From positions 56,917,241 through 56,981,240 of the forward strand of contig NC_092389.1 of the NCBI RefSeq assembly GCF_030028105.1: a stretch of DNA of 64,000 nucleotides, written 5' to 3'. Source of the stretch: Mobula birostris. Lineage: Eukaryota. Shown in pieces: positions 1,883-63,904 of this stretch (its first letter is position 1; each line of letters begins with the position of its first letter). The notes beneath the pieces were generated by a model that saw only the letters and a program-made list of their open reading frames with translations, was not told the DNA's origin and searched no databases. The position numbers and the translations under genes are program-made.

Positions 1883-2010
1883 CAGTCCTGATGAAGGATC
1901 CCGGCCTGGAATGTCGATTGTACATTTCTGTCCACAGATGCTGTCTGACCCGCTGAATTTCTCCAATATCACGTTTCTTACTCGAGATTCCAGCATCTGC
2001 AGTCTCTTGT
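1883..2010 (+). mobile_element. Penelope-derived 3' module with a degenerate hammerhead ribozyme
   Basis: cagtc-CTGATGA-a-ggatcccggcct-GGAA-tgtc-gattg (GAAA core mutated), followed by the family tail 'agatgctgtctgacccgctga...ttccagcatctgcagt'. Confidence 0.7.
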
Positions 2011-2559: not shown

Positions 2560-2970
2560 ATGGCTTCGAAAGGACCGGCCGAGAGCTGGACCGAAGAGGT
2601 AATTTGTCCCGTCTGTCTGGATTTCTTCACCGATCCGGTTATACTGGAGTGTGGGCACAACTTCTGTCGCTCTTGTATCACACGGTGTTGGGAAAGGGAG
2701 GAGAGAAACTCCTGCGCGGAATGTAGGGAGGTGTTTGCTGACCGCACCCTCAGGGTAAATCGGGCCTTAGCAAATCTGGCTGAAGAAGCTCGAAATATAA
2801 ACCTAAATCGGAAAGGGAAGGAAAGTAAACTTCACTGCGAGGAACATGAGGAAGAACTGAAGCTGTTTTGTGAGACGGACAAGACACTGATCTGTCTGAT
2901 CTGTGCAGCTGCGCAGAAACACTGAAAGCACCACTTCATGCCGATTAAAGAAGCTGTTAAAATCTACAAG
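2560..2970 (+). CDS. TRIM coding exon 1: C3HC4 RING + B-box2 (premature TGA at 2923-2925)
   Basis: MASKGPAESWTEEVICPVCLDFFTDPVILECGHNFCRSCITRCW..CAEC; CEEHEEELKLFCETDKTLICLIC..H*KHHFMPIKEAVKIYK|gtaaaa. Upstream acceptor 'ttccttcccacag' ends at 2436. Confidence 0.9.
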
Positions 2971-3633: not shown

Positions 3634-3689
3634 GTGAGGCTTCCTGAGCGGAATTTCTGATATTAATCGATAGTTTTGCTCCCTTTAAT

Positions 3690-3995: not shown

Positions 3996-4051
3996 ATAAG
4001 CAAATACAACACAGCAATACGGTACATTGATCTTCACCTTTCATTCGACAG

Positions 4052-4285
4052 GAACAGTCCAACAGCATTCAGACCCACATTACATCCCAGTTTGCTGAAC
4101 TGCGCCAGATTATCACTGAGAAAGAGCAGAGCTTACTCAGGAATCTCAGGATGGATGAGGCGAGGATTCTAAATCCAATGGAGAAAAATCTTCAAGAGAT
4201 ACAAAAGAATATTAGGATTCTTCAGGAGGAAATCTCAAAGATAAAGGAACAGATGGATCGAAAAGACAGTGTGATATTTCTCAAG
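4052..4285 (+). CDS. TRIM coding exon 3 (coiled coil, 234 bp)
   Basis: gacag|EQSNSIQTHITSQFAELRQIITEKEQSLLRNLRMDEARILNPMEKNLQEIQKNIRILQEEISKIKEQMDRKDSVIFLK|gtgagg. Confidence 0.9.
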
Positions 4286-5496
4286 GTGAGGGATTATATT
4301 TCAATTTATTTCTGTCAAAGGACACTAAATGAACAGTGGAATATTTGAAGTAAACAGTGGCCATTTCTAACAAATCAGTTGCCGCTGCTGGCGACCTCGC
4401 ACAGTTTGTTATACTTGTACGTTACACCTTCCAATCACTCCAATAATCATGTTCCAAAATGTCGAAGATAGGTATTCGATCCTTCAATAGCAACATACAA
4501 TCTTGAAGCGATGAAACTTAAGTGTAATTAATCGTAAATTAAGCTGCAATGAATTGGTCAACAAAAGGTATGCCATCCATCTGTCCACAGCTCAAAACAG
4601 CCCAGAACAAAGTACTAATACCTCACCTTTTCCTTTTACCACACCCCACTCACGTGACTAGTTGCCATAATAACCATGTAACTCAGAATACAATGCAGAG
4701 AGAAAACAGATGTGTTGCTCCTACACACAACATTTACAAACGGCAGTAAACTGTCTCACCAGACAATTGATACAACTATTCAGTGCTGATATTGTCCCAA
4801 AACCGGACTTCCACAACTTCTGTACATCACAGGACAGAATCCAATCTTCTCTGAAATGATTTACTCTGATTATAATGCAGAGCTGCTGATTGTGTCTTTG
4901 ATTATCACATTAAATATTCTCTAAATCTCACATTGACACACAGTTCCAGTCACAGACTGTGAATGTGTCTGGTGCGGTGGGTGTGAGGGTCTCTCTGTCA
5001 ATCACTGAGAGCAAAGAATGTGACCCACACATCAGATTTATCCGCTATATCCGGTTTCCGCCAGATTACGGAAACATTCACCGACTCTACATCTTCAGAT
5101 AAATTTCACATGGGATTACATCCCATTCTCCATCATAAACAAGCCATTCGGTCCATATTCTGCTATCAATTTCACTGCTTCACAAGCCTCTTCCCACCTA
5201 TCCACCACACCCAGCGACAGTGCTCTGATCTCCACGGTCCCTCATCTGTTTATCTAGTTTACCCGTGACATTCAATCTCTGCTGTTCCGCTTCAACCACT
5301 CCTGTGCCAGTGAGTTCCACATCCTCTTCACTAAATTTCTTATCGGATTCATTATCAAATCCATCACTGATTTGAGTTCGCCCATCTCATCATTCTAACG
5401 CTTCATCCAGATGAAAATGCATGACGTGTCCTGTCTTCCTTGCAAGTTTCATCCTCTCAGTAATGGCCCAGCTTTCAGAGAAATACCCTGTAATTT

Positions 5497-6128
5497 AACC
5501 CCTGGTTCTGCATTGTCTGTGTGTGTGAGTGAGTGACTGCAGGAGTGGGAATTTTCAACCCCTGGTTCTGTATTGTCTGTGTGTGTGAGTGACTGCAGGA
5601 GTGGGAATTTTCAACCCCTGGTTCTGTATTGTCTGTGTGTGTGAGTGACTGCAGGAGTGGGAATTTTCAACTCCTGGTTCTGTACTGTCTGTGTGTGTGA
5701 ATGACTGCAGGAGTGGGAATTTTCAACCCCTGGTTCTGTATTGTGTCTGTGTGTGTGAGTGACTGCAGGAGTGGGAATTTTCAACCCCTGGTTCTGTACT
5801 GTCTGTGTGTGTGAATGACTGCAGGAGTGGGAATTTTCAACACCTGGTTCTGTATTGTCTGTGTGTGTGAATGACTGCAGGAGTGGGAATTTTCAACCCC
5901 TGGTTCTGTATTGTCTGTCTGTGTGAGTGACTGCAGGAGTGGGAATTTTCAACCCCTGGTTCTGTATTGTCTGTGTGTGTGTGTGAGTGGCTGCAGGAGT
6001 GGGAATTTTCAACCCCTGGTTCTGTATTGTCTGTGTGTGTGAGTGACTGCAGGAGTGGGAATTTTCAACCCCTGGTTCTGTATTGTCTGTGTGTGTGAAT
6101 GACTGCAGGAGTGGGAATTTTCAACACC
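5497..6128. repeat. Intronic minisatellite, ~11 copies of a 56-60 bp unit with an internal (TG)n
   Basis: Unit 'aacccctggttctgtattgtctgtgtgtgtgagtgactgcaggagtgggaattttc' repeated head-to-tail with no spacers. Confidence 0.95.
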
Positions 6129-6201
6129 TTGTAATGGTTTGGATGAAATTCAGGATGTCGAGAGTCTCAGTCTATTCAGATTTGTGTTTTATTTCTTTCA
6201 G

Positions 6202-6224
6202 GAGGAAGCTCGTCAGAACAGGAG
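6202..6224 (+). CDS. TRIM coding exon 4 (23-bp micro-exon; donor mutated)
   Basis: tttctttcag|GAG GAA GCT CGT CAG AAC AGG AG|gaagga. Phase 2 joins exon 5 to give AGG (Arg). Confidence 0.75.
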
Positions 6225-6311
6225 GAAGGACATGCTCTTTACTGAAACCCTGTATGGATTTGTAAAATAGTTTAGAATAGCAGTTTATCACCATCAGTTT
6301 ACTATTTACAG

Positions 6312-6430
6312 GATTAATGATGATGTCCCGGAATTGTCAGTGACAGATGAGGCCCTACCGGTGGAAAAATTTGATCACCTCTATTTGCTGAACACAATGC
6401 TGAGAGAAACACTTGATGCCATTAATCGAG
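6312..6430 (+). CDS. TRIM coding exon 5 (119-bp linker)
   Basis: tttacag|G-INDDVPELSVTDEALPVEKFDHLYLLNTMLRETLDAINR-G|gtaaaa. Confidence 0.85.
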
Positions 6431-8569
6431 GTAAAACTCACAAAGATTCATTTCTACTTGTTTGTGAGATCACAATTAAGTTCAATTTTGAGGCAAAGAT
6501 TGCTGTAATATTGGGTTGAAGTGGAACTGAAGTCTATTCCACATCAACCCCACCGACGGGGGGGGGGCGTCACTGTCACATGGTCAGCTGGAGATGTCAG
6601 ACCCCTGAAGACACCAGCACAGGGCCACAATACAACCAATACACGAGACAGGCAGATGAACCACTGTGTCCCGATCCCAGGCCACTGCACTAACACACCT
6701 AGACATGAGTTTGAATCCTACCACAGGAGCTGAGAAATTAATACTGGCTTGATGATATTGCAGGGAATAAAAGTGGGCTGTGGTCACCGGGCTTGTCAGA
6801 AAAATGCACAAGTCCTTTGTGCGCTGTGAGTGCAGACTCTGATTGACGCAGGTCTTTCCCCTTCTGGATCTGCAACTCTCACTGTTGTTCGAGGGAAAAG
6901 AGGGGAGCGGTAGTGATTGGGGACTCAGTCGGGGAACAGACAGGAGAATCTGTGGATGTGAGTGGGACACCCGAATGGTATGTTGCCTCCTAGGTGCCAG
7001 AATCAGGGATGCTTCGGATCGTGCCTGCAGCATTTTAGAGAGTGAGGGAAAACAGCTGGATATATCGGTATATTTCGGGACCAATGACATTGGAAGTAAA
7101 AACAAAGAGGTCCTGAAAATAGAATTTGGAGAGCTTGGTGGAAAGCTCAGAAGCAGTACCTTCAGGTTTATAATTTCTGGACTGCTGCCTGTGCGACGTG
7201 CTGGTGAGGGTAGGAGCAGGATAATTTGGCAGATTAAAGCATGCCTGAGAAGCTGGTGCAGGGGGCAGGGCTTCAGGTTTTTGGATCATTGGGATCTTTT
7301 CTGGTGGAGAAATGACCTGCTCAAAAGGGATGGGTTGCACCTGGACCCGAGGGAGAACAATATTCTCACAGGGAGGTTTGATAGAGCTGTTGGGGAGGGT
7401 TTAAACTAATTTGTTGGGGGGGGGGGTGGTTAGGAACGAGTGAAGGGGTAGGATTGATGGTAAAAATGCAAAGATAGTGTGCAGTCAGACTGTCAGATGG
7501 GGCAGCCAGATACGAGGACAAAACTGCAGCCAGCTGGGTGAGTATCAGTGCATTAGGGATGCAGAATGAAAAAGGATAGGAAATACAGTACCCAAAGTGT
7601 TATATCTCAATGCATGGAGTGTGAGAAATAAGGTGGATGATCTTGTTGCTCGATTACAGATTGTCAGGTATGATGTTGTTGCCAATCATGGCTGAAGGAT
7701 GGTTGTAGTTGGGAGATGAATGTCCAAGGTTACACATTGTATGGGTGGTATAGGAAGGTAGGCAGAGGGGGTGAAATGGCTCTCCTGGTAAATCAATAGA
7801 AAGATGTAACATAGGATTGGAAGATGTTGATTCCTTGTGGGTTGAGTGAAGGAAATTCAGAAGTGAAAATGACACTGATGACAGTCATATACAGGATCCC
7901 AACAGTAGCTGGATGTGGACCACAGATTACAACTGGAAATAGAGAAGGCCAATGAAACAGACAATGTTACAATAGTCATGGGAGAATTCAACAAGCAGGT
8001 CAATTGGGAAAATTAGATTGATAATGGATCTCAAGAGAGTGAATTTGTTGAATGCCATGTGATAACTTTTTAGTGCAGTTTATCATTGAGCCAACTCGGG
8101 GAACAGCTCTACTGGATTGGATGTTATGTATTGAACCAGAGGTGATATCTTAGGAAAAAAACCTGAGGAGGCCGTGCTCACAACATGACTGAGTTCAACT
8201 TGAGATTTGATAAGGAAAAAGTAAAGTCTGACGTTGTAGTATTCCAGAGGAGTAAAAGAAATTACAGTGGTCTGACAGAGGAGCCGGCCAAAGTAAATTG
8301 GGGGGAGATGTTGTCCAGAATGACAGCAGAGCACAAATGATATCAGATTCTGGGAAAATGAGGAAGGTGAAGGATAGATATATTCCAAAAGTAAATAAAT
8401 ACTCAAATGACAAAATAGTACAATCGTGGCTGATAATGCTGATGTAAATGCAAAAGAGTGGGCATACAACAAAGTGAAAATTAATAGGAAGACAGAGAAT
8501 TGGGAGGCTTTTAAATACCTACTGAGAGGAACTGAAAAAAATGATTGGGAGGGGAAAAATGAAATATGG

Positions 8570-8888
8570 AATTGAATTGAATTGACTTTATTACTTACAT
8601 CCTTTCTATAAACGAGCAGGAAAAATCTTCCGTCTAAATGTGCAGTTTATAGTAATTTATGAAAAATAATATGTATAACATTCCAGTCAATATAACATAG
8701 AAATACAGTTGTCTCAGCACGAGTTAATCAGTCTGATAGCCTGGTGGAAGAAGCTGTCTCCGGACCCTGTTGGTTCTGGCTTTTATGCTGCGGAACCAGT
8801 TCCTGTATGGTAGCGACTGGTACAGTTTGTTGTTGGGGTGACTTGGGTCTCCAATGATCCTTCAGGCCCTTTTTACACACCTGTCTTT
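8570..8888 (-). mobile_element. Rex1/Babar LINE 3' fragment nested in CR1
   Basis: (aattg)n tail plus 'ctttatt', and decayed Rex1 RT C-terminal DNA ('gcctggtggaagaagctgtc'). Confidence 0.65.
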
Positions 8889-8915
8889 ATAAAACAAGTA
8901 AGCAAACAATATCAA

Positions 8916-8960
8916 GCAACACACATCAAAGTTGCTGGCGAACGCAGCAGGTCAAACAAA
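8916..8960 (-). mobile_element. 45-bp 3' stub of the Penelope/hammerhead family flanked by a 13-bp TSD
   Basis: Minus strand 'tgacctgctgcgttcgccagcaactttgatgtgtgttgc' matches the family tail. 'caaacaatatcaa' is duplicated at 8903-8915 and 8961-8973. Confidence 0.7.
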
Positions 8961-11039
8961 CAAACAATATCAAATTGATTTTCAAGTATTGTGAAAAAAT
9001 AAAATAGAGATGAGAGTGGATATAGGACCACTAGAAAATGAGGCTGGATATATAATAACAGGGGACAAAGAGATGATAGATGAACTAAATGAGTATTTTC
9101 ATCAGTCTTCACTGTGGAAGACACTGGCACTGTGCCAGGTGCTGAAGGGTGCGAGGGAAGAGAAGTGAGTGCAGTTACTGTTAGAAAGGAGAAGGTGCTC
9201 AAAGAGCTGAAAGGCCTAAAGGTACATAAGTCACTCAGACCAGATGAACTGCACCCTAGTGTTCTGAAAGAGGTAACGGTAGACATTGTGGAGGCATTTG
9301 AAATGATCTTTCAAAAATCATTGGACTCTGGTGTGGTGTCAGAGGACTGGAAATTACAAATGTCACCCAACTCTTAGTCATGAGGAAGGCAGCAGAAATG
9401 AAGTTATAGACCAGCTAGCCTCACCTCTGTGGGTGGGAAGACATTAGTGTCAATTGTTAAGTATGAGGTTATGGAATACTTGGTGATACTGGACAAGATA
9501 GGACGCGTTGGCATATAATAAGATTGGTGAAGGGGCCAGTAGTGTTGAGGAAACAGGTAGGCTTCAAAGGACTTGGATGAGGAGACTGGGCAAGAAAGTG
9601 GCAAATGATACACGATGCTGGGAAATTCATGGTCATGCACTTTGGTAGGAGACATAATATGCAGATTATTTAAAATGGGGAGACAATTCAAAAATCTGAG
9701 ATGCAGATGGATGTGGGAGTGTTTCTACAGAACACCCTGAAGGTTAACTTGCAGGTAGAGTCAGTTGTGAGGAAGGTAAATGCAATGTTAGCATTCAGTT
9801 CCAGGAGTTTAGTATACAGGAGCAGGGATGTGATGCTGAGGGTTTATAAGGCAATGGTGAGGCCTCACCTTGAGCATTGTGAACAGTTTTGGGCTCCTCA
9901 TCTGAGAAAAGATGTGCTGGCATCGTAGAGGGTTCAGAGGAGGTTCACAAGGATGATTCTGGGAATGAAAGGGTTATCAGACTTGAAACGTTTGATAGCT
10001 CTGTGCCTGTACTCACTGGAATTTAGAAAGATGATGGGGGATCTCACTGAAACCTTTTGAATGTCGGAAGGCCAAGACAGAATAGATGTGGGAAGGATGT
10101 TTCCCATGGTGGGGGAGTCTGGGACAAGAGGGCACAGCCTCAAGATACAGGGGCGTCTTATTTAAAAACAGAGACGCAGAGAAATTTCTTTAGCCAGAGG
10201 GTGGTGAATTTGCAGAACTTGTTACCACAGGCAGCCGTGGAGGCCAGGTCGTTGGGCATATTTAAGGCTGAGCTTGACAGGTTCTAGATTGCACACAGTA
10301 TCAGAGGTTGTGGCGAGAAGGCCGGGGAGTGGGGCTGAGGAGGAGATGAAAAGGATCAGCCATGATTGAATGGTGGAGCAGTCACAGTGGGCCAAATGGC
10401 CAAATTCTGCTCCTATAATTTATGAGCTTATGGTTATCAGACCACAACATTGAAGCATTGTGGGAACGAGCCCGGACAACCCAGCCAGCATTGACATTGT
10501 TCAGGATTTCATCTCAGGAGAAGCACACACAGCATAACCAGACTGGCAAAACAGCCCGACACACACATACACAGGAAGGATTGGCAGATTGTAGTCAGAG
10601 ACGCAGCAATGTACGTTGATATTTCCTTCAGTAACCTAGAAACTATTCTCTTCAGACACGGTAATTTATTTGCTTAAACAACTCACACATGTCACACATT
10701 GTCAGCACACACCAGACATGTGATGACACACTGTAACATAGAAATACTTCAATGTGCACAAACACACTGATATTTACCACAATCAACACACACACATACA
10801 CACACAATATCTGAGTGTGGCACATGGCCAAAGAAATAGGCCCACGTTCTGACTTAGGAATGAAATCTGCCGTCCTTACCCAGTCTGTTCTGTGCATTGA
10901 GCTGCCCTCTGACGTGATGTCACATCAACAGTTCACAGACAGACTCCAGGGTGAGATTCCTCAGGAGGATGATCTGGGAGGGTTTGACGGATATTGAACC
11001 CACGGCCCACTTCATCCATCTGCAGACTGAGATGTCTTC

Positions 11040-12515
11040 CTGAGCATGTCCCGTTTGTGTGTGTTTGTCCCACATCCATCTAACCATTTCCTATCTATGT
11101 ACCTGTGTAACTTCATCTTAAAATATTTTAATTTTACCTGTTTCTACAGCATCTGACAGCAAATTCCATCTGCCCACCTCCCTCTCTGTGAGAATGTTAC
11201 CCCACAGATCCCTCATAAAATCTTCCCCACTCACTTTCAATCTGAGCCCTCTGGTTCTGTACTCCTATTTCTCAGAAAAAGACTCACTTTATCTCAGCCC
11301 GTTATGAATGTATTTACCTCGATAAGGGGTCATCCCTCAACATCCTACACTACAGCTAAATAGCCCAAGCTTAACCACTCTCCGCTTTTAATCCAAGCCC
11401 CCCAGTCCTGGTAACATCCTCCTGAATCTTCCTGTCCAGTGTAATGATGCCCAACACGGGTTGACTCTGTGGTTAAAAGGCATACGGTGCACTGGCCTTC
11501 ATCAATCGTGGGATTGAGTTTAACATAGAAACATAGAAACATAGAAAATAGGTGCAGGAGTAGGCCATTCGGACCTTCGAGCCTGCACCGCCATTTATTA
11601 TGATCATGGCTGATTATCCAACTCAGAACCCCGCTCCAGCCTTCCCTCCATACCCCCTGACCCACGTAGCCACAAGGGCCATATCTAACTCCCTCTTAAA
11701 TATAGCCAATGAACTGGCCTCAACAATCTTCCTGCATCTAGCCTGTCCAATCCCTTTAGGATCTTATACGTTTCAATCAGATCCCCCCTCAATCTTCTAA
11801 ATTCCAACGAGTACAAGCCCAGTTCATCCAGTCTTTCTTCATATGAAAGTCTTGCCATCCCAGGAATCAATCTGGTGAACCTTCTTTGTACTCCCTCTAT
11901 GGCAAGGATAAGAACCGAGAGGTAATGTTGCAGCTATATAGGACCCTGGTCAGACCCCACTTGGAGTACTGTGCTCAATCCTGGTCACCTCACTACAACT
12001 ACAGGAAGGACGTGGAAACCAATAGAAAGAGTGCAGAGGAGATTTACACGGATGTTGCCTGTTTTTGCTGGGGGTCGGGGACGGTATGCCTTATGAGAAT
12101 AGGTTGAGTGAACTCGGCCTTTTCTCCTTGGAACGACGGAGGATGAGAGGTGACCTGATAGAGGTGTACAAGATAATGAGAGGCATTGATCGTGTGGACA
12201 GTCAGAGGCTTTTTCCCAGGGCTGAAATGGCTAGCATGAGAGGGCATAGTTTGAAGGTGCTTGGAAGGAGATACAGAGATGTCGGAGGTATGTTTTTTAT
12301 GCAGAGAATGGTGAGTGCGCGGACCGGGCTGCTGGTGGTGGTGCTGCAGCCGGAAACGACAGGGTCTTTTAAGAGACTCATGAATGGCTACATGGAGCTT
12401 ATAAAAATAGAGGATCATGGGTAAGGCCTAGGTAGTTCTAAGGTAGGGACATGTTCGACACAGCTTTGTGGGCCGAAGGGCCTGTATTGTGTTCTATGTT
12501 TTCTGTGTTTCTATC
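11040..12515. mobile_element. Stack of CR1 3' ends: old (-) ~11040-11440; (+) ~11455-12515 interrupted by a young (-) copy at 11523-11905
   Basis: ORFs LYRTLVRPHLEYCAQ and RRRMRGDLIEVYKIM (+), and [27 protein letters not shown] (-); (catagaaa)n and (ctatgttt)n tails. Confidence 0.85.
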
Positions 12516-12589
12516 TTTCACTATATTCGGGGAAGTGGAAATGCAGACAATACCCGAACTGTGGTCTATCATCGACATCAAAGACCTTG

Positions 12590-14585
12590 CTTAAGTTCCT
12601 GTGGACAGTGTCGAATAGGCTGATGAATACAGGACTGAAGGTGTTATATTTGAATGCTCCAGTATACGGAATAAGGTAGATGATGTTGTAGCACAGGTAG
12701 AGATTGGCAGGTATAACGTTGTTGACGTCACTGAGTTGTGGCTGAAAGGAGATGCTGGTTGAAGCCCAACATCCAAGGATACACCTTGTATTCAAAGGAC
12801 AGGCAGGTAGGCAGAGGGGATGGGGAGGCTCTGTTGTAAAAAATGAAATGAAATCCTCAGCGAGAGGTGACATAGGGTTGGAATATGTTGAGTCATTGTG
12901 GGTAGAGTTAAAAACTGCAAGGGTACGAAGACCCTGATGGTAATTATATACAGACCTCCAAATAGTAACCAGGGTCGAAATGGGATACAAATTACACTAG
13001 GAAATGGAAAAAAAATGCAATGTGACAGTCGAAATGGGGGATTTCAACATGGAGGTAGATTGGGAAAATCATGTTGGTGCTGCATCCCAAGAGAGGGAAT
13101 TTGTAGAATGTCCCCAAAATAGCTTTTTAGAACCACTTCTGGTTGAGCCCAATGGGAGAAAGGCAATTCTAGAGTAGAGTTTCTATAGTGATTATGATTT
13201 GGGAGACTAAGGGAAAAGAATCTTTAGGAAGCAGTGATCATAAAATGATAGAATTCATCCTGAAGTTTGAGAGGGAGATAAAGTCAGATGTATTGGTATT
13301 AGAGTGGAGTAAAGTTAGTTACAGAGGCATGAGGGAAGAGCTGACCAAAGTAGATTGGGAGGGGTCACCAGCAGGGATGATTGCAGAACAACAAAGACTG
13401 GAATTTCTGGGGGCAATTTGGATAGATAGATCCCAAAGACGGAGGAGTATTATCAACGGAGGATGTGGCAACCTTGTTTAACAAGGGAAGTCAAAGACAG
13501 CATAAAAGTGAAAGAGAGGGCATACAATAGAGCAAAAATTAGCAGGATGTTGAAGTATTGAGGAGATTTTGATAATCAACAGAAAGCAATTACAAAGCCC
13601 GAAGGAGAGAAAATGAGATATGAGGGAAAGTTTGCCTACAATACTCAAGAGGACACAAAACTCTAAAGAGTAAAAGAGAGGCAAGAGTGGATATTGGACC
13701 CCAAGAAAGTGACACTGGAGAGGAGACATGTGACAAAATACATTGTCGAAGTACTTATTTAATATTTTGTGTCAATCCTCACTGTGGAAGATACCAGCTG
13801 TGTGTCAGAAATGTGAGAGTGTCTGGGGACAGAATTGAGTGTTGTTGATGTTGCTGAGGAGAAAGTGCGTGGGAAGATTGAAGGTCTGAAGGTAGCTGGA
13901 CCAGATGGACTACACCCCAGTGTTCGGAAAGAGTTAGCTGAAGAGAATATGGGGGCATTAGTAATGATCTTTCAGGAATCACTAGATAATTGGACATTCA
14001 AGACGAATGGAAATTGCAAAGGTCACTTCACTCTTTATGACGGGAGAGCAGCTGAGGAAAGAAAATTACAGGTGAGTTAGTCTGGATGTGGTGAGCTTGG
14101 AAAGATGCTGGAGTCCAGTATTAATGGAACTGCTTTTGGGTACATGGAGGCACATGATAAAATAGGGCAAAGACAGCGTGCCTTCCCTGAAGGGGAAATC
14201 TTGCCCGACAAGTCTGTTGGAATTCTTCAAAGAACACAAAGCTGAGATAGACAAAGAATGATTTGGATGACAGAATTGTTGCCTTTGTGGCCAAGTTTGC
14301 AGATGATATGAAGTTAGGTGAAGGGGAAGGTAGTGGTGCAGAAGCTCAGAGTCTGGGGAAGGACAGAGACAGATTCGAAAATGGACAAAGATGTGATAGA
14401 TGGATTATCGAGTAGGGAAGTCGTGCATGCAATTTGGCAGGTGGAATAAAGGCATAGACGATTTTGTAAACAGTGAGAAAATTCAAAAATCAGAGGTGCA
14501 GAAGGGACTTGGGTGTCCTTGTGCAGGATTCCCTAATGGTTAGTTGCAGTTTGAGTCAGTGTTAAGTTCAGCAAGCTCAACAGCT
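12590..14585 (+). mobile_element. Degenerate CR1 ORF2 (endonuclease-RT) fragment
   Basis: ESLWVELK, IYRPPNS, LGSSDHKMI and GPDGLHPSVRKELAE motifs spread across broken frames. Confidence 0.85.
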
Positions 14586-14589
14586 TTTT

Positions 14590-14953
14590 TTATCCTTTTT
14601 TCCCTTCTCTCTCTGTCCCTCTCACAATAACACCTTGCCTGCTCTCCATCTTCCTCTGGTGCTCCCCTCCCCCTTCCTTTCTCGATAAGGTTCCCGTCCC
14701 ACGATCCTCTCCCTTCTTCATCTCTGTATCCCCTTTTGCCAATCAACTGTCCAGCTCTTGGCTCCATCCCTTCCCTTCCTGTCTTCTCCTATCATTTTGG
14801 ATCTCCCCTCCCCCTGCCACTTTCAAATCTCTTACTAGCTCTTCTTTCAGTTAGTCCTGACGAAGGGTCTCGGCCTGAAACGTCGACTGTACTTATTCCT
14901 GTAGATGCTGCCTGGCCTGCTGCATTCACCAGCATTTTGTGTGTGTGTTGCTC
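14590..14953 (+). mobile_element. Penelope-derived non-autonomous element with an intact hammerhead core
   Basis: Pyrimidine-rich body, then the hammerhead, then the tail 'tagatgctgcctggcctgctgcattcaccagcattttgtgtgtgtgttgct'. Confidence 0.8.
14852..14889 (+). ncRNA. Minimal type I hammerhead ribozyme (intact core), sense within TRIM intron 5
   Basis: tagtc-CTGACGA-agg-gtctcgg-cct-GAAA-cGTC-gactg. Stem I tagtc/gactg, stem II agg/cct, palindromic ACGT stem III, GUC cleavage triplet (predicted cut after 14884). Confidence 0.8.
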
Positions 14954-15029
14954 GGCTCCCATTATCACCTTCTTTACTGTTTCGAACCTTCACACTCCCT
15001 CACTTCATACTCACAAATGAATGTTAACA

Positions 15030-15935
15030 TTGAATGAAGGGCCTGTTCCTGTGCTGTACTGTTCTATGTTCCCTGTTCCCTGTTCAGAAGAATGAGAGGA
15101 GATCTCAGGGAAACACAAAATTCCTCCAGGAGTCAACAGGCAGAATAGAGTGAGGATGTTTCCTCTGTCTGATGTGTCAAGGTTCAGGGGTTACTGTCTC
15201 TTTGGGATTTTCTGCACGGCATGGGTGGGAGTGGGCTAACAGACATTCAGTGCATTTAAAATCACAGAGCCATCGTCGTACAGCATAGAAATGTGCCTTT
15301 CGACCCATCACCTTCGTGCTAACCTATTTACCCATCTACATTCATCCCATTGGCCAGCATTAGGTCAGTCTCCTTCTCTGCCTTGCCAATTCAAGTGTCT
15401 GTCCAAGTGTCTCTTAAACACAGAGGACTGGAGGCCTGTGACCTGCAGAGGTCGGTGCTGGGGCTGGGGTTGTATGTCATTCCTATTTATGATTTGGATG
15501 ATAATGTCGGTGACATAGTTAGGAGGTTTGTTAATGACACTAAAATTCATGGTATAGTGGACAGGGAAGAGGGTTATCTCTGTTTACACCGGGCCCTTGA
15601 TCAACTGTAGAGATGGGTACAGGGAGAATGTTTTAAAATACATCTTGGCAGGGACGTGGATAAGAAAAGGTGAAAGGAATAATGGGCAAATGGGACTAGC
15701 TCACTAGAGCAAGTTGGTCAGCACAAACGAGTTGGGCCGATGGGCCTCCGTGACCTCCAGTTTAAATCTATTCACCCACCCCTTTCCCATCTTAATCCAC
15801 CCCTTTCCTGCACTCGTTTCTGCTGTCTATTTATTTCTATCCTTGAGGGAAGATGTCGACCTGAACCGTAGACTGTCCATCTCTCTCCACACCTCCTGCC
15901 TGACCCGCTCGGTTCCTGCAGCATTTTGTGTCTGT
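15030..15935. mobile_element. Mixed short CR1 fragments and a degenerate Penelope/hammerhead tail (~15770-15935)
   Basis: CR1 RT remnant (IYDLDDNV..RFVNDTKI) and the tail 'ctgcctgacccgctcggttcctgcagcattttgtg'. Confidence 0.6.
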
Positions 15936-16072
15936 TTGATCGGGAAATCTCTGCTCTCCGTCCAGCAGAAAGTCCTTGGGGAGACATTAGTTGTCCACCC
16001 GGTTTCGTTCGGTCAAACCACGGGAAAGGTTCGTGTCGGCCACCAGACCGCGCCTGAGGCCTAGCGGCCTTT

Positions 16073-16225
16073 CCCCCGATCTCCGGGGCCGCGCTGCCCG
16101 AGTCGCCCCCCGATCCCCGGGGCCGCGCTGCCCGAGTCTCCCCCCGATCCCCGGGGCCACGCTGCCCGAGTCTCCCCCCAATCCCCGGGGCCGCGCTGCC
16201 CGAGTCTCCCCCCGGTCCTCGGGGA
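16073..16225. repeat. GC-rich minisatellite, ~4.5 x 34 bp, just upstream of the SPRY exon acceptor
   Basis: Unit 'cccccgatccccggggccgcgctgcccgagtctc' starts at 16073, 16107, 16141, 16175 and 16209 (partial). Confidence 0.92.
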
Positions 16226-16253
16226 CTCTCTAATTCTCTGCTTCTCCCCCCAG

Positions 16254-16798
16254 TCTCTGTCACCCTGGATGTGGAAACGGCGAATCCGTGTCTCGAGGTG
16301 TCTGAGGATCGGAAGAGTGTGAGATGGACCGAGACCAGGAGGAATCTCCCTGACACCGGGAAGAGATTCACAAACAGGGCTTGTGTGCTGGGATCAATGG
16401 GATTCACATCGGGGAGACATTACTGGGAGGTGGAGGTGACGGGGAATCGGGACTGGTGTCTGGGAGTCGCCGCAGAGTCTGTGGAGAGGAAGGGACGGGT
16501 CGGACTGAGTCCGGAGACCGGATTCTGGGTCATCGCGCGGGTTGATGACGTGTTACATCGGGATTGTGACGTGATCATCTCCCCTGAGTCCCGTCTCCCT
16601 GCCGGTCCCATCCCCGGGAGGGTGGGAGTTTATCTCAGTTACCCGTCCGGGACAGTTTCAGTTTACAACGCGGAGACCAAGTCCCATCTCCACACCTTCA
16701 CTGGGAATAAATTCACGGGGAAACTTTATCCTTTCTTCATGACTTGGGATGGAAACCGGTGGCTGAGAATCTACTCCGGTTCCGCTCCGGGTCTGTAA
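16254..16798 (+). CDS. TRIM coding exon 6: PRY/SPRY (B30.2) domain
   Basis: ccccag|(V)SVTLDVETANPCLEVSEDRKSV..RFTNRACVLGS.GFTSGRHYWEVEV..WCLGVA..GRVGVYL..HLHTF..KLYPFF..stop. AATAAA at 16866-16871. Confidence 0.93.
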
Positions 16799-23520: not shown

Positions 23521-25125
23521 TGATGACACAGAGGTCGGGGGTGTTGTGGGTAGTCTGGAGGGTTGTCAGAGATCACAGCGGGAAATGGATAGGATGCAGA
23601 ACTGGGCTGAGAAGTGGCAGATGGAGTTCAACACAGATACGTGTGAAGTGGTTCATTTCGACAGGTCAATTTTGAACACAGAATATAACATTAATGTTAA
23701 GACTGTTGGCAGTGTGGAGGGTCAGAGAGATCTTGGGATCCGTGTCCATACGACACTCAAAGCTGCTGCGCAGGTTGGCAGTGTTGTTCAGAAGGCGTCT
23801 GGTGTGATGGCCAACATCAGCCGTGGGATTGAGTTGAAGAGCTGTGAGGGAATGTTGTAGCTATATTAGGAGACATTTAGTCCCCACTTGCAGTACTGTG
23901 TTCAACTCTGGTCACCTCACTACAAAAAGAATGTGGATATGAAAGAGGGAGTGAAATGACTAACACGAGGGGGACATAGTTTTAAGGCGCTTGGAAGTCG
24001 GTACAAGGGGGATGTTAGGGGTAAGTTTTTCACACAGAGAGTGGACGGTGTGTGGAATGCACTGCCAGTGACTGTGGTAGACACAGATACAATGGGATAT
24101 TGTAAGAGACTCTTAGATAGGTACATGGAGCTTAGAAAAATAGACGGCTATACGATAGGGAAATCCTGGACAGTTTCTAGAGTAGGTTACATGATGGACA
24201 CAACATTGTGGGCTGAAGGGACTGTAATGTGCTGTAGATTTCTATGTTCTGTGTCAAAGGCAGGCAGAGGGATTAGTTTAAATGGACACCAGGACAGCAT
24301 GCAAAAGTTGGGCCGAAGGGCCTGTGTCAGGCCGTAAGGGAGGGGCTCTGTCCCAAACATCGACTCTATTCCATTCAATAGATGCTGCCGGACTTGCCAA
24401 AATTCTTGAAAAGTTGCATTCAGTTCTGCTTAGCATTCTGTACAAAGGGTGTTTTGTGCTGGAAGACTGCAGAGGAGATTCATCATGATTGAGGGGGTTT
24501 GTGTCCATAAGACCATAAATCATAAGAGCAGAATTAGGCCATTCAGCCCATTGAGTCTGCTGACTTTCTGTCATGGCTGATCCCGGATCGCACTCAATTC
24601 CATACACCTGACCTCTCGCCATATCCTTTGATGCCCTGACCGATCAGGAAACAATCAACTTCTGCCTTAAATATACCCACAGACTTGGCCTCTACCGCAG
24701 TCTTTCACGGAGCATTCCAAACATCCAATACTCCCTGGCTAATAAAAAAAATAATCCTCCTTACTTCTGTTTAAAAAGGTGGCCCCTCAACTTTGTGGAT
24801 GCGCCCTCTAGATCTTGATAGCCCCACTATTGGAAATATCCTCTCTGCATCCACCTTATCTGGTTCTTTCAGCATTCAGCAGGTTTCTATGAGATTCCCT
24901 CTGCATTCTTCAGAATTCCAGGGTGTACGTGCTCAAAGTTGACAAATGTTCCTCATATGTTAACTCCTTCATTCCCTAAATCATCCTTCTGAACCTCCTT
25001 TGTACTCTCTCCAATGACAACTCATCCTGTCCGAGATATGGGGCCCAACACTGTTGACAATACTCCTGGTGTGACCTGACTATCGTCTCATAAAGGCTCA
25101 GCATTATCCCCTTACGGTTATATTC
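23520..25125. mobile_element. CR1 3' fragments: (+) ~23520-24250 and (-) ~24505-25125
   Basis: WAEKWQMEFN..CEVVHF, 'VWNALP', and (ctatgtt)/(ccataaga) tails. Confidence 0.85.
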
Positions 25126-33742: not shown

Positions 33743-34504
33743 CTAGAGGGAGGGGGGGGCGAGAGAGAACAGAGAGAGAACAGAACAGACACTGGGCATT
33801 AATGATCACATTCTCTGGGTATTAACAAAGGATCGGGTTTCAGTTAAAGATCACGAGTGCGAGAGTCTGTGAACGGCTGCTAATATAACAGACACGCGTC
33901 ATACTGTCTTTTTTTCACTTTGGAAATAAGACGATGTGTGGGGAATTGTCGGGGATAAAATCGAGCTACATGAACAACAGCAATCGGTGCTCATCCCGAT
34001 TCCAGTCGCGGATGGGGCTGGTTTCACTGATTTGACCGTGACCGACCAGGCCTCCGGAATCTCAGTACCCAACGGGGCCGAGGAGCAATGCAGAGAGTGG
34101 TAACAAACATAAAACACTAACGAAGTCGGTAGGTCAGACAGCCTTCATGAAATTGAGCAATCTCTCGTTTCAGGACGAGACGCTTCTTCAGGATGAAGCG
34201 GTGTCCCAATTTACGAAGCGCCTCGGAGGAAGTGCAGGGACAACTCAGTAACCAGAGGCTGAGCGGCTGCTTTAATGCATTAATTCTACAGTGCAGTTTA
34301 TTTCCATAACACACGTCAGCAGAACCGTGGATACTGCTTCAGGTGATCAGACCCAATTTACTGACCAACATGCGGGGGATCCGACAGTGAGAGACTTCAC
34401 GGGGAGACATGAGACACAGGACCAGGTGTTCTTTCTGATCAATAACTCAGAAAGTGTGAACTTGGCAATTTAAACCTCTCCTGGTCCCCCTACGGCGAGA
34501 ACAG

Positions 34505-45678: not shown

Positions 45679-46192
45679 GATATAAACAGAAAATAATCTG
45701 CAGATGCTGGGATCAAAGCAACACTCACAATACGCTGGAGGAAATCAGCAGGTCGGGCAGCATCCGTGGAAACGATGGGTCGACGTTTCGGGCCAGAACC
45801 CTTCGTCAGGACTGAAGAGGGAAGGGGCAGAGGCCCAATAAAGAAAGTGGGGGAGGATGGGAAGGAGAAGGCTGGTAGATTCCAGGTGAAAAAACAGTAA
45901 TTTGAAAGACAAAGGGGTGGGGGAGGGGAAGCAGAGAGGGGATAGGCAAGAAAGGTAAAGAAGGAATAGGGGAAAACACAATGGGTAGTAGAAGGAGGCG
46001 GAACCATGAGGGAGGTGATAGGCAGCTGGGCGAGGGGACAGAGTGAAATAGGGATAGAGGTAGGGAGGGGGAGGGCATTACCGGAATTTGGAGAATTCTG
46101 TGCTCGTACCAAGGGGCTGTAGACTACCTACACGGTATATGAGGTGTTGCTCCTCCAACCTGAGTTTAGCCTCATCATGGCAGTAGAGGAGG
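45679..46192 (-). mobile_element. Penelope-like element 3' end inserted in the Gypsy gag
   Basis: Minus strand LLYCHDEAKLRLEEQHLIYRVGSLQPLGTSTEFSKFR* (GIY-YIG endonuclease C-terminus), a pyrimidine tract, the hammerhead and the family tail. It splits gag ..DTATL|QETAKLAD. Confidence 0.88.
45777..45814 (-). ncRNA. Minimal type I hammerhead ribozyme (intact core, short stem I)
   Basis: Minus strand cagtc-CTGACGA-a-gggttctggccc-GAAA-cGTC-gaccc. Confidence 0.75.
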
Positions 46193-48108
46193 CAATGTAG
46201 CAGTGTCCCTTTCATTTCAGTATGTTCTCACTTCAACAGGAATCCTTCTTTTAAATTCCTCCAGTAAAATCAACTCTTTAATATATTATGCTCCCCATTC
46301 ACATTTTTAGTTGATAACCATCTCTCAAAATTCACAGATTTCTCATAGGCAAATTCCACATAAGTTTTTTTTTCTGCAGATTTCTTCAAATTTCTGAATC
46401 TTTCTCTATACGCTTCCGGAACCAACTCATATGCCATTAATATATGCTGTTTAACAATATTATAATCCAGTGCTTGATCAGCGTTTAAAGCTGTGTACAC
46501 TTGTTGTGCCTTGCCCTTAATTCCACTTTGTAACATCACTGGCCACTGTTCTTTCGGCCAGCCTAAACTCAGAGCAATACTTTCAAAATGCTGGAAATAT
46601 TTGTCCACTTCAGCTTCAGTAAATGGAGGAGCCAAAATAACCTCATGACTAGCCATAAACTGTTTCTTAGAACCAGAAGACTGATTTCCCATCCTTAATT
46701 TCTCCATCTCTAACTCAAATTTCCTCTGTTTTTCAGCTTCTCTATCTTTAAATTCCCTTAATTTATTTGTCTCTCTTTCATCAAATTCCCTTTTTTATTA
46801 GCCTCTCGTTCGGCTATTTGCGCTTTAAATCTTCCAAACTTCATCTGTTCAAGATGTAGCTGCATTTCCAGATTACTCATTGGAAACCTATCTAACACAT
46901 CATCATCACACGTTTTCAAACTAACATATTGCTCAGCGATTTTTCTGTGAATTAAAGCCTTTGTGGTATTCTTCGTAATTCCCTTAATATCCAACTCCCT
47001 CGCCATCTCCAGTACAACAGGTTTTCTCGCAATCTCTAAAAACACAGGGTAAGGCGTCTCCATAATGTCGTCAACATTCATTGCTGCTGAATACCACTCA
47101 CATACCGATCAAACTTAAAAAAAAAACGGATATTTCCCTTTTCCAAATCAGAATGGCAATTAACAGCACTTAAACTCAAAAATTTTGGAACAAGATCCCG
47201 GACGAGCCCCCACAAATTATGTTACGTAACCGGCAACAATGAATATCAATCGAGTCAGGTTATATAAAAACAGCTAAACATTTATTAAAAACGGATAAAC
47301 AATAAAATACAAACGAAAACCTTAACCGGAAGTTAACCATTATGCGGCCGTTCAACAACTCATCACTCGGAACGGATTCTTAAAAAGATAAATGCAAAAG
47401 CAGTTCTTAAAGCGGTAAAGTCAAATACAATTCTTAGAATGGTAAATTCGGAGGTCTAACAGATTTATACATTCATTTGGGAGAGACTTCTCTGGAGAAG
47501 GATTTCTTCATAGACGCGACTTTCCTGCTGGTTCTGTCCAAAGGATTCACGATGAAGGAAAAAGAAAAAACGGCTTTTAACAACTGACCCTCATTTCTAG
47601 AGAGCACCTTCCATGAACTTCCTTTCTCCTTTGGCAAGAGTTAAATTCGATACAGGTCGCTACTTCTTCAAGGAAGAGTCAAGAATGTCGATTCTTTATT
47701 AAGCTGCCAAATATCCCCGACTTCTCTTAATCCTTCATATCCTGTACTTCGATGAAGTCTTCACTCTCCAATGTTACTGAAAAGATACATTAACAAACCT
47801 AGCAGCGATTGTCAAACTGCTGGTTCAGACTTCTATTTCTTATGTTAGAACATAAAACTCCGTTTTAAATCAACACTGCGTCGTACTGCAAATACACAGC
47901 TGAGCCGAGTATCTCATTGACGTTCGAACTGGAAAACTAAAAAAAAATAATAACTAACTGCGTCATCTGAGGTCTTCTCTTTTATACCCGTGGTGAACAT
48001 GTCATCACGTGACCTCACATCGGCGGGAAAATTACATCAGGTGACCTCCAAAAGACCATTACATCATTCTCACAAGAAAGTCACAAGATTTCTTTGAGCT
48101 ATGTAACA

Positions 48109-56053: not shown

Positions 56054-57338
56054 GTGAGTGACCAGAGAATTTATGTTTTGTATTCTGTGTGTTAACTTGG
56101 GTGAACATGTGTGAGATTATTTTACCAGCTTCCAACTTGATGCTCATTGGACCAATATACTTCAGTGATAACGATCCCGTCAATTGAACATCTTTATTTT
56201 TCACATTAATGTTAAATGAAGCTATATTTATACCTCAGCTCTAACACCATAAGACCGTAACTCAAGGGATCGACTCCGACGTTGCTCTTGCCTGAAACGA
56301 CGCGTTGCATAGAGTGGTACCAGTGCTGCGGCGTGCAACCCTCCGGCAATGTGTGACTGGGAGAGTTTTACATCGTGTGTTTGACTGTTTCTGAGTTATT
56401 GATCAGAGTGAACACGTGACCTTTAATCTGACCTTTTCCAGAGTTTACCTGTACCGGGAACGGGTAGCTCTTTGGGACGGTGTGCCTGGGGTGGGGGGTG
56501 GGGGGTGGAATTCAGTGGGACTTTGCCCAGAGTTGTATCAGTGTTTGGGACAGGTGGTGCTCTGGGAAGGCCTGATGGGGAGGATTTTAATAGCATCTTG
56601 TCCAAATTTGTACCAGTGCTAGGGATAGGTAGCTCTACGGGAGCGTGTTACTGGGAGAGTTTCACCTTGTGTCACTAGTTCTGAGTTGTTGATCGGTGTG
56701 AACCTGCTCCTGCTTCTGTACTAACGTCTCCCTGTAGGGTCTCAGAGTCAATAATTGTGTCCGATCAACTGAAATAGGGTCAATGGATTGAACTGTGTCA
56801 TCGAATTGCACTGAGCTGTAGAGTTAATCCATTAAATATACCTTTTGTTACTAAGATGTCTCAACATTCACTATGAGACTCGTCGTAAACAGAGTCACCA
56901 CTTCACCCTGAAGAAGGGTTTCGGCTCGAAAAGCTGAGTGTGTTAAAGTTCATGAACGCTGCCTGACCCGCTGAGGTCCGACAGCATTTTGTGAGCTTTG
57001 CTCCCCTCTGTATCCCTTCTCGGCCAACTCAGATGCTGACTTTCCAGAGGCCTGGCCAGTCACTGTTAAATCAATGAAACCGGCCCCATCAGCGACTGGA
57101 ATTGGGTTAGAAACAATTGTTGGTGCTCATGTAGCTCGGTTTTAATCTCCGATGATTCGGCACAATTCGTCTATTCCTAACACTGAAGAAGACTGGTCAG
57201 AGACAGCGTGACCAGTGATTTTAGAGCGGAAGCCGTTCAGCGACTCTAGCACTACCGACATTTATCTGAAACCCGAACCTGTGTTAATGCCCGGAGAACG
57301 TGTTCAGTAATGCCGCATGTCTTTTTTTTTCTCTCCAG

Positions 57339-61349: not shown

Positions 61350-62930
61350 ATTCTGTAGAGGTTGTATTGAGAGCAACGTGGGCAGCTGCATCACTGCCTG
61401 GTTTAGAAATTGCACCATCTCTGGTCGGAAGAACCTGCAACGGATAGAGATGTCAGCTGAGAAGATCTCTTCCCACCATTAGAGACATTTACACCACACG
61501 CTGCATCCGTAAAGCAAACAGCATTATGAAGGACCCCACGCACCCCTCATACAAACTCTTTTCCCTCCTGCCATCTGGAAAAAGGCACCGAAGTATTCGG
61601 GCTCTCACGACCAGACTATGTAACTGTTTCTTCCCCCAAGCCATCAGACTCCTCAATACCCAGAGCCTGGACTGACGCCAGCCTACCGCCCTCTACTGTA
61701 CCCACTGTCCTGTTTATTATTTATTATTATTTACTGTAGTGCCTGCACTGTTTTGTGCACGTTATGCAGTCCTTGAGAGGTCTGTAGCCTAGTGTAGTTT
61801 TTGTGTTTCTTCTTACGTAGATCTGTGTAATTTTTGTATTGTTTCATGTAGCACCATGGTCCTGGAAAATGTGGTCTCGTTTTTACTATGCCCTGTTCCA
61901 GCAGTTATGGTTGAAATGAGAATAAAAAGTGAACTGACTTGACTTGACAAATCACGCAGGATCGACCCAAACAGGGGGTCTCGGGTGAGCTCACACCTCA
62001 ATCTCATACGTTTGTGGGGTCAGAGATGGTCTTTCCCAGACTTAGGTAGCCGAACAGAAACTGGGTATTTCACCGTTATCTACCTATTGCAGCGAGCTCA
62101 CTCCCACCGGGATGATGGTGGTGGCATTCTGGGAATCACATTTTTTAAAAAAAATTACCAGTGCTTTCAATTCAATCCAGCCACGTCATCTGTGCAAGAC
62201 GCTGCGAAGGATGGGCGTAGGACAAATTCACTATCTCCTGGATTACTGGTTTCCTGACTGATATACCCCAGTTTGTAACCGCTGGGTGGTTCTCTGCCTG
62301 AGGTGGAGATGAGTGACACTGGAGCCCCACAAGGGACTGTCCTGTCCCCGTTTCTGTTCACGCTGACACCTCAGACTTTCAGTACAATTCTGAGTCTGGC
62401 CACTTGCAGAAATTCCCTGATGACTCTGTGGTATTTGGTGTATCAGAGATGGGCAGGAGTCGGAGCACAGAGGACTGGTGGACAGGTTTGTGGAATAGTG
62501 AGGGAGGAATCACCTGCCCCTGAATATGGCCAAAACCAGGGAAAAGGTGATTGATTTTAGGAGGAAGAGGACAGCAACGAGTCCTGTATACATTCTGGGA
62601 GAAGACGTTGCGGTGGTGGAGGAGTACAGCATTGGGGAGTACAGCGATTCAGGAACAGCTTCTTCCCCTCTGATCCAATCCAATTCCTGAATGGACATTG
62701 AATCTTTGGATACTACCCTGGATTTTTTTAAAATATACATTATTTCGGTTTTTGCACGTGTTTTTAATCTATTCAATATATATAATTTACTTACTGTTTA
62801 TTTCATATAATTGTTACTGTCATTATTATTATTATTATTACTCTGCTAGATTATGTATTGCATTGAACTACTTCTGTTAAGTTAACAAATGTCAATTCAC
62901 ATGCCGGTGATCATAAACCTGATTCTGACT
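61350..62930 (+). mobile_element. Two or more Rex1/Babar LINE fragments
   Basis: IMKDPTHPSYKLFSLLPSGKRHRS..TTRL..FFPQAIRLLN-encoding DNA with a (gactt)n tail; DTGAPQGTVLSPFLFTL. Confidence 0.85.
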
Positions 62931-62959
62931 GCACTGGTGTTGCCTCCTGCACCAAAGCG

Positions 62960-63870
62960 AAGCAAGTTGACTTCCTCAATGTTGCCTGTAAATTATTTCA
63001 CCCTGCTCTCAAATTCACCTTGCCCATTACTCCCTTCCCCTTTTCGATTTCACTGTCTCTAGCTCTGGTGACAGTTTATGCATTGATGTCTATCACAAAC
63101 CGACTGAACTGGACTCTATCTCTTTTACAAGTTGTTACTTATAAAAATGTCGTCCCTTTCTCTCAATTCCCCTGTCTCTGCCGCAGCCGCTCTCAGGATG
63201 CTGCTTTTCATTACAGAACGAAGGCGATGTCCTCCTTCCTCAAAGAGAGGGGCTTCCCTTCCTCCACCGTCAACGCTGCCCTCAACCGCATCTCTCCCAT
63301 TTTGCACACATCTGCCCTCACCCCATCCTCCTACAACCCCACCAGGAATATAGAGAGAGAATTCCTCTTGTCCTCACCGACCACCCCACCATCGTCTGTG
63401 TCCAGCACATAATTCTCTGCAACATCCGCCATCTCCGGCAGCATCCCAGCACCAAGCACATCTTTCCTCCCCCTCAACACGTTTTACTTTCCGCAGAGAT
63501 TGCTCCCCACGTGACTCCCTTGTCCATTCTCCCCTCCCGACTGATCTCCATTCTGGCACTTATCCTTGCAAGTGGAACAAGTGATACATCTGCTGCTTCA
63601 CCTCCTCCGTCACGACCATTCAGGTCTCCAAACAGTCCTTCCAGGTGAGGCGACACTTCAACTGTGAGTCGGTTGGGGTTATCTATCGTATCTATTTCAT
63701 CGTATCCCCCGGGATCAATAAAGTATGAGTATGAATATGACTATGACTATGACTGTGCTGTGACTTCTTGTATACTGGTGAGACCTGACGTAGACTGGGA
63801 GACCGCGTCACCGAGTACTACCGCTCCAGCCGCCTAAAAAAGCAGGATTGTCCAAACGGCCCCCAATTTT
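62960..63870 (+). mobile_element. Penelope-like element fragment (RT C-terminus, linker, GIY-YIG), interrupted by a Rex1 tail at ~63702-63754
   Basis: VPFSQFPCLCRSRSQDAAF..RTKAMSSFLKERGFPSSTVNAAL; F.CESVGVIY ... LYTGET.RRLGDRV.E. Confidence 0.85.
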
Positions 63871-63904
63871 AATTCAAAGGTACATTTAATGTCAGAGAAA
63901 TGTG

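What the first reader, a model, noticed from the sequence alone, without database searches (positions are those of the whole stretch)
14852..14889. Dispersed minimal hammerhead ribozymes carried by Penelope-derived elements, one intact and sense-oriented inside the TRIM intron
Seen: the motif CAGTC-CTGANGA-(A)-stemII-GAAA-C-GTC-GACTG recurs at 1883(+), 3367(+), 14852(+) and 45777(-). More decayed versions lie at ~15845(+), ~24340(+), ~34165(-) and ~56905(+), each followed by the same ~60-90 bp tail. The 14852 and 45777 copies keep all core nucleotides. The 45777 copy sits just after a Penelope GIY-YIG C-terminus, which ties the family to PLEs. Established: PLEs carry minimal type I hammerheads with a palindromic (ACGU) stem III that cleave best as dimers, and an extra A after A9 is tolerated in natural hammerheads. 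Inference: about 8 copies in 64 kb suggests a very high-copy ribozyme-bearing non-autonomous family in this lineage. Copies sense to a host pre-mRNA could cleave it or pair as dimers.
Basis: partly seen in the sequence, partly recalled or inferred. Interest (0 to 1): 0.8.

Follow-up and report, generated by a model that had tools for sequence, protein, structure and literature searches.

The report
Penelope hammerhead repeats in ray genome
These are real copies of a known tiny self-cutting RNA motif carried at the ends of a very abundant jumping gene in a ray, and the copy inside the TRIM intron is most likely an inert leftover in a broken gene.

Summary
The motif is real. 14852-14889(+) is a complete minimal type I hammerhead (ACGU helix III, extra A, predicted cut after 14884). 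It belongs to the pseudo-LTR of a Neptune/Nematis-type Penelope-like retroelement (PLE) of a ray; an intact autonomous copy with a hammerhead in each repeat lies elsewhere in the genome (L140). The kind was described in 2014, and this scan already noted it in four other shark/ray genomes.

Copy number is very high: 34,338 exact-pattern matches; extrapolated about 80,000 intact and 650,000 in all.

Host cleavage is not supported. The TRIM copy has a premature stop and a broken donor. Intronic copies show no sense depletion (35 sense, 30 antisense; intact 5:3, small sample). Cores decay like flanks, and covariation is one-sided only.

Two extras were not found in my literature searches. Insertion 5' ends pile up at the ribozyme's 5' edge, not at its cut site. 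A subfamily with the core change A6C, which cripples Mg-dependent cleavage in other hammerheads, still amplified. Both suggest catalysis is not needed for insertion. No cleavage or expression was shown.

The parts
14852..14889 (+). Complete minimal type I hammerhead: helix I 14852-56/14885-89, CUGACGA 14857-63, extra A 14864, helix II 14865-68/14873-76, GAAA 14877-80, ACGU palindrome 14880-83, predicted cut after C14884
14605..14952 (+). 5'-truncated PLE insertion: pyrimidine-rich pLTR part, hammerhead and short tail, no ORF remnant; 80-88% identical to the pLTRs of the intact element L140
2560..16798 (+). TRIM (RING-Bbox-CC-PRY-SPRY, A33-like) gene, 6 exons, intron 5 = 6431-16253; probable pseudogene
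2923..2925 (+). In-frame TGA at codon 122 in exon 1; paralogues have R at 76 of 81 motif matches
6225..6226 (+). Exon 4 donor position reads GA, not GT/GC
1883..1920 (+). Short copy (hammerhead plus tail), core broken (A13G), upstream of the TRIM start codon
3367..3404 (+). Copy in TRIM intron 1, core broken (G5A), preceded by a PLE linker remnant at 3076-3132
45777..45814 (-). Copy with full core but only 3 bp of helix I, from another subfamily
46084..46227 (-). GIY-YIG C-terminal remnant of the same insertion as 45814
15823..15953 (+). Decayed copy in TRIM intron 5, core lost
8903..8969 (-).
24325..24425 (+). Decayed copy
34084..34201 (-). Decayed copy upstream of a GPCR-like ORF
56898..57019 (+). 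Decayed copy upstream of the paralogous GPCR-like ORF
62924..63875 (+). Old PLE RT/linker/endonuclease fragment; no hammerhead seen after it in L101

Best explanation
The motif is the pLTR hammerhead of an autonomous Neptune/Nematis-type Penelope-like retroelement. Shown: element anatomy (pLTR-hammerhead-tail, ORF, pLTR-hammerhead-tail, target duplication), copy number, truncation pattern. Inferred from known PLE biology: the element's RT starts internally in the tail about 95 or 135 nt behind the ribozyme core, copies 5'-wards and usually stops early, so nearly every insertion carries the ribozyme. With no helix III a single copy cannot cut; it needs a partner (a tandem pLTR) and probably the element's protein. 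Once inserted alone, copies are passengers that decay neutrally, fastest at CpGs. The 14852 copy is one such passenger and probably does not cut its host RNA at a meaningful rate.
For: L140 is complete: hammerheads 3,735 nt apart, 1,089-aa ORF with RVT_1 (E 2.9e-5) and GIY-YIG (E 1.1e-3) Pfam hits (both under the curated cut-off), CX4CxxC linker and a roughly 14-bp flanking duplication. Exact counts 34,338 and 62,354 with 0 in reversed controls. Two 3' ends, 47 short and 41 long of 88 copies, match the PLE tail of PMC11167929. Core vs flank mismatch 8/450 vs 67/2880 at non-CpG sites; G8 in a CpG 4/45. Monomer MFE buries the core in a rod (-11.0 vs -7.0 kcal/mol). LRP-family introns: 35 sense/30 antisense of 65; intact 5/3. 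In the TRIM pre-mRNA no second intact catalytic strand exists.
Against: No cleavage assay and no RNA evidence. The orientation test covers two genes, 400 kb and only 8 intact copies, some from single inverted insertions, so modest depletion is not excluded. In a 131-nt context helices I and II form with probability about 0.55, in a 221-nt context about 0.02, so folding is uncertain. Clade rests on a motif, not a tree. A slight excess of 5' ends at the cut site (865 vs 771, p=0.02) could reflect rare cleaved templates.
Confidence: 0.85

Rival explanations
1. In this lineage the hammerhead sequence is kept mainly for non-catalytic roles (transcription start, RT stop, protein binding); catalysis is dispensable for mobilisation. 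Compatible with the best explanation, but a stronger claim.
For: 5' ends: 18 of 88 tail-selected copies end at -5..-1 before C3, 2 at -11..-6, 0 at the cut site. Genome-wide among 27,342 exact cores, 1,871 break at -5 and 1,922 at -4 versus 745 at the -8 control. A CUGCUGA (A6C) subfamily: 1,604 non-A matches, 81 of the first 100 being C; A6C cut kobs from 0.30 to 3.6e-6 per min at 0.3 mM Mg2+ in another hammerhead (PMC7151607). Core mutants did not affect anole PLE insertion in vitro (PMC11167929).
Against: Most subfamily majorities, including the youngest, keep the full core while flanks diverge. A6C stays active in Mn2+ and at higher Mg2+, and that subfamily may have been moved in trans. 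The pile-up is only about 2.5-fold over the control, and junction positions are blurred by microhomology.
Confidence: 0.3
2. The short copies are a separate non-autonomous SINE/retrozyme family with its own source genes or circular RNA intermediates.
For: A discrete short class (about 100-140 bp) exists; 10 of 30 inspected have 8-15 bp target duplications. Internally deleted tandems with two hammerheads 400-960 bp apart occur. Retrozymes derive from pLTRs (bioRxiv 2026.07.22.740005).
Against: Short and long copies share sequence and tail ends and form a continuum up to full length. No tandem arrays of short units were seen in the loci read.
Confidence: 0.12
3. Sense-oriented intronic copies cleave host pre-mRNA, and the 14852 copy regulates or disables this TRIM gene.
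For: The copy is intact and sense in intron 5. Tens of thousands of intact copies give possible trans partners. A dimer hammerhead fold is allowed (-11.5 kcal/mol).
Against: Gene has a stop at codon 122 and a GA donor. The cis partners are dead (G5A; decayed). An inactive extended duplex is far more stable (-30.3). No sense depletion. Minimal PLE hammerheads were inactive as monomers and weak as dimers (PMC4209133).
Confidence: 0.05

Closest known systems
Metazoan PLE min-HHR (Cervera and De la Pena 2014, PMC4209133; parts 1-2 of 4 read)
   Same: Type I, no helix III loop, palindromic 15.2-16.2, extra base after A9, short helix I, in both pLTRs, mostly dispersed single copies of truncated PLEs
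   Different: Helix II only 4 bp; copy number far above the 4,000 (coelacanth) and 9,000 (Xenopus) reported; cartilaginous fishes not named in the parts read
Neptune/Nematis clades of EN+ PLEs (Craig et al. 2021, PMC8557442; passages read)
   Same: C-terminal GIY-YIG with CCHH, CX2-5CxxC linker, partial tandems, inverted 5' pieces, optional 30-40 bp tail
   Different: About 380-aa Pro/Ser-rich N-terminal part with an internal repeat; clade not tested by tree
Poseidon PAc of Anolis (Frangieh et al. 2024, PMC11167929; parts 1-2 of 4 read)
   Same: Two 3' ends behind the hammerhead; no sign of ends at the cut site
   Different: PAc start codon overlaps the hammerhead; here the first ATG of the long ORF lies 166 nt after C3, beyond the tail; Poseidon lacks the linker motif
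Non-LTR retrozymes (PMC7229834, passages; bioRxiv 10.64898/2026.07.22.740005, parts 1 and 3 plus passages)
   Same: Type I hammerhead, pLTR-derived, high copy (axolotl up to 120,000)
   Different: Retrozymes are tandem arrays, mostly with canonical hammerheads; these copies are dispersed and minimal

Membership tests
PLE minimal hammerhead (min-HHR) | Core CUGANGA...GAAA..UH with helices I and II | tested here: met
   14852: 5-bp helix I, 4-bp helix II
PLE minimal hammerhead (min-HHR) | No helix III loop; palindromic 15-16 positions | tested here: met
   ACGU at 14880-83
PLE minimal hammerhead (min-HHR) | Extra nucleotide between A9 and 10.1 | tested here: met
   A in 45 of 45 young and 67 of 75 older copies
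PLE minimal hammerhead (min-HHR) | Located in both pLTRs of an RT/GIY-YIG element | tested here: met
   L140
PLE minimal hammerhead (min-HHR) | Compensatory covariation among families | tested here: not met
   232 copies: pair-keeping one-sided changes at two pairs (60 and 69 copies); two-sided 0-4 per pair. One lineage, so little room for it
PLE minimal hammerhead (min-HHR) | Cleavage as dimer | not testable with these tools
   needs an assay
Rfam hammerhead families | Score against Rfam models | tested here: not met
   no hammerhead among 3 hits at E<=5
Neptune/Nematis PLE | CX2-5CxxC linker before a CCHH GIY-YIG at the C-terminus | tested here: met
   L140 protein against PMC8557442
Neptune/Nematis PLE | RT phylogeny | not tested
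   no named reference RTs in hand
Non-LTR retrozyme | Tandem arrays of hammerhead units | tested here: not met
   window copies are solitary; only partial tandems in selected loci; no genome-wide array search

The most novel reading that the evidence does not exclude
In rays the PLE hammerhead's 5' helix marks the 5' boundary of the template (an initiator-like start site, or an RT stop on the hairpin). Reverse transcription from the adjacent tail then yields a strong-stop-like cDNA of 100-140 nt that inserts on its own. That would seed hundreds of thousands of hammerhead-headed repeats from uncleaved RNA, with catalysis so dispensable that an A6C-core subfamily could spread. The genome would be a natural large-scale record for the open question of what PLE hammerheads are for.
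Probability: 0.25. Interest if true: 0.6.

Novelty: new member of a known kind. Interest (0 to 1): 0.32.

Why it matters
As a ribozyme it is a known kind. Its value is scale and what the insertion junctions record: the role of hammerheads in PLE mobilisation is still described as unclear (PMC8557442), and this family offers tens of thousands of young insertions, an intact source element and a natural core mutant to test it. It also suggests that introns tolerate intact minimal hammerheads in sense orientation.

Tried and rejected
Rfam scan: no hammerhead hit. CUGANGA alone is barely above chance (56 vs 43.7), so the case rests on the full motif. Folding z-scores of single copies and tail are not significant (-1.24, -0.69, +0.60). 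RNA evidence: no RNA holder listed; contigs of four guessed-RNA runs laid on L140 cover the element but cannot show starts, ends or strand, and no GT..AG joint was among the 15 joints shown of 317, so this is evidence neither way. Cap-derived G at the -4 ends: not supported (first 30 listed: 12 C, 9 G, 9 A). A spliced exon joined at the AG before helix I, as in D. virilis: no common upstream sequence among the junctions read. Poseidon clade: rejected on the linker motif. The orientation test was planned for 750 kb in five genes; only 400 kb in two genes was obtained, which leaves modest depletion open. Lunse et al. (RNA Biol 14:1499) was not held; seen only as cited in PMC6765202 (passages). 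Literature searches for shark, cartilaginous fish, elasmobranch or batoid PLE hammerheads and for end pile-up or solo copies found no description; supplements of PMC4209133 and of the 2026 preprint (one chondrichthyan genome sampled) were not seen and may list such families, and Repbase/Dfam could not be checked.

Full report
OBSERVATION. The sequence at 14852-14889 reads as a complete minimal type I hammerhead: 5-bp helix I, CUGACGA, an extra A, 4-bp helix II, GAAA, the ACGU palindrome, and a predicted cut after C14884. Only 14857(+) and 45809(-) keep both core boxes. The 45814 copy has only 3 bp of helix I; 3367 has G5A and 1883 has A13G. The strict descriptor gave 0 hits in 200 simulated windows. 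Rfam has no matching model hit.

HOST. The nearest named relatives of the PRY-SPRY exon are A33-like TRIM proteins of myliobatiform rays, up to 89% identical. The gene has six exons from 2560 to 16798, and 14852 lies sense in intron 5. Exon 1 has an in-frame TGA at codon 122, where 76 of 81 paralogue motif matches have R, and the exon 4 donor reads GA. It is probably a pseudogene of a large family (inference).

THE ELEMENT. A 34-nt pattern with an intact core has 34,338 exact matches in the 4.0-Gb genome and a 31-nt tail pattern 62,354; reversed controls 0. In 400 kb of intron-rich DNA there were 65 copies, 8 of them intact. Extrapolated, that is about 650,000 (500,000-830,000) and 80,000 (35,000-160,000), if that DNA is typical. 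Following the tail into the body and a protein search led to L140, one of 11 regions fetched. It has pLTR-hammerhead-tail, a 1,089-aa ORF, a second pLTR-hammerhead-tail 3,735 nt on, and a flanking duplication of about 14 bp. Pfam RVT_1 and GIY-YIG hit below their cut-offs; 36 longer relatives were found for the C-terminal part. The CX4CxxC linker places it with Neptune/Nematis rather than Penelope/Poseidon according to PMC8557442 (passages). The 14852 insertion is only pLTR and tail (14605-14952); 45814 also keeps the endonuclease C-terminus. So the family is autonomous, with mostly truncated insertions.

ARE DISPERSED COPIES UNDER SELECTION? In 45 young copies chosen by their tail and 5' flank (of 88 distinct), non-CpG mismatches were 8/450 in the core and 67/2880 in flanks (p=0.61); CpG sites decay faster, G8 4/45. 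In 75 older copies G12 was A in 24. Between subfamily majorities the 38-nt motif is nearly constant while both flanks change, which points to selection on source elements, but changes are one-sided only. For orientation I used two LDL-receptor-family genes whose strand was inferred from PF00058 exon clusters: 35 sense and 30 antisense copies, 9:4 with core boxes, 5:3 intact. No depletion is visible; the sample is small and some pairs are single inverted insertions.

MECHANISM. By PMC4209133 (parts 1-2 read), minimal PLE hammerheads showed no monomer activity and low dimer activity. By PMC11167929 (parts 1-2 read), the anole PLE hammerhead cleaved only with the element's protein, core mutants still inserted, and RT started internally at two tail sites. 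Here the 3' ends fall in two classes, 47 and 41 of 88. The predicted monomer pairs GACG with CGUC and buries the core; the dimer hammerhead fold (-11.5) is much less stable than an extended duplex (-30.3). Within the TRIM pre-mRNA no other copy has a working catalytic strand. I conclude the 14852 copy is most likely inert (inferred; 0.85 for the whole reading).

TWO FURTHER FINDINGS. First, 5' ends. Of 88 tail-selected copies, 27 reach -340 or beyond, 23 end at -339..-12, 2 at -11..-6, 18 at -5..-1, 16 at 0..27, none at the cut site and 2 beyond. Genome-wide, among 27,342 exact cores, 1,871 break at -5 and 1,922 at -4, against 745 at the -8 control (the control pattern is one base shorter at its 3' end). 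By eye about 27 of 30 inspected -5 cases are true junctions, 10 with target duplications and 13 with inverted pieces. At the cut site the count was 865 against 771 at the next base: a small excess at most. Templates therefore seem uncleaved, with a preferred boundary at helix I. An initiator-like start (consensus recalled, not from a call) or an RT stop on the hairpin would both fit; I could not separate them. Second, an older subfamily carries CUGCUGA: 81 of the first 100 of 1,604 non-A matches are C, and 5 of the 65 intronic copies (6 listed, one a false match dropped). A6C strongly reduces Mg-dependent cleavage in other hammerheads but spares Mn-dependent cleavage (PMC7151607, passages).

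COMPARISON AND NOVELTY. The motif meets the structural features of the 2014 min-HHR class; covariation and cleavage are not shown. The reported counts were 4,000 and 9,000 in coelacanth and Xenopus and up to 120,000 canonical retrozyme copies in axolotl (PMC7229834, passages). My searches found no paper on ray PLE hammerheads or on the end pile-up, but supplements and repeat libraries were not seen. Four earlier notes of this scan report the same kind in other shark or ray genomes; they are unchecked leads. Other papers seen: PMC6155905, PMC6765202, PMC2377424, PMC3846280 (passages); bioRxiv 2026.07.22.740005 (parts 1, 3, passages); bioRxiv 2026.10.27.761883 (word search only, no Penelope mention).

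VERDICT. Observation confirmed, interpretation partly supported. New member of a known kind. Interest 0.32, raised a little by scale and by the junction and A6C evidence on an open question.

Noticed in passing
window 34084-34201(-) with 32847-33821(-); 56898-57019(+) with 57311-58246(+): Two paralogous single-exon GPCR-like ORFs each have a decayed copy about 300-400 bp upstream with shared odd features; probably one old insertion duplicated with the gene, so not independent (by eye).
   Followed up: no
window 41979-47108(-): Broken Gypsy-like LTR retroelement (gag, protease, integrase, RT pieces); the 45814 PLE insertion sits inside it.
   Followed up: no
L012 and related young copies, just upstream of the hammerhead: TACTAAC variant, pyrimidine tract and CAG/TAG resemble a 3' splice site at the 5' end of helix I, as reported for D. 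virilis Penelope; no splice joint seen.
   Followed up: partly
L132-L139: Internally deleted partial tandems with two hammerheads 400-1,800 bp apart; the natural candidates for cis-dimer cleavage.
   Followed up: partly
L140 ORF, N-terminal part: About 380-aa Pro/Ser-rich N-terminal part with a duplicated block of about 70 aa.
   Followed up: no
window 48537-49238(+): Tc1/mariner-like transposase fragment (by appearance).
   Followed up: no
window 5500-6130 and 16060-16220: Minisatellites inside TRIM introns 3 and 5.
   Followed up: no
window 44776-44855(-): Weak SNORD34 Rfam hit (E 0.28, below gathering score) inside the Gypsy-like ORF; probably chance.
   Followed up: no
G000:C7:186405107 and 186778731: Identical-scoring LRP exon hits about 374 kb apart; possible tandem or assembly duplication.
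   Followed up: no
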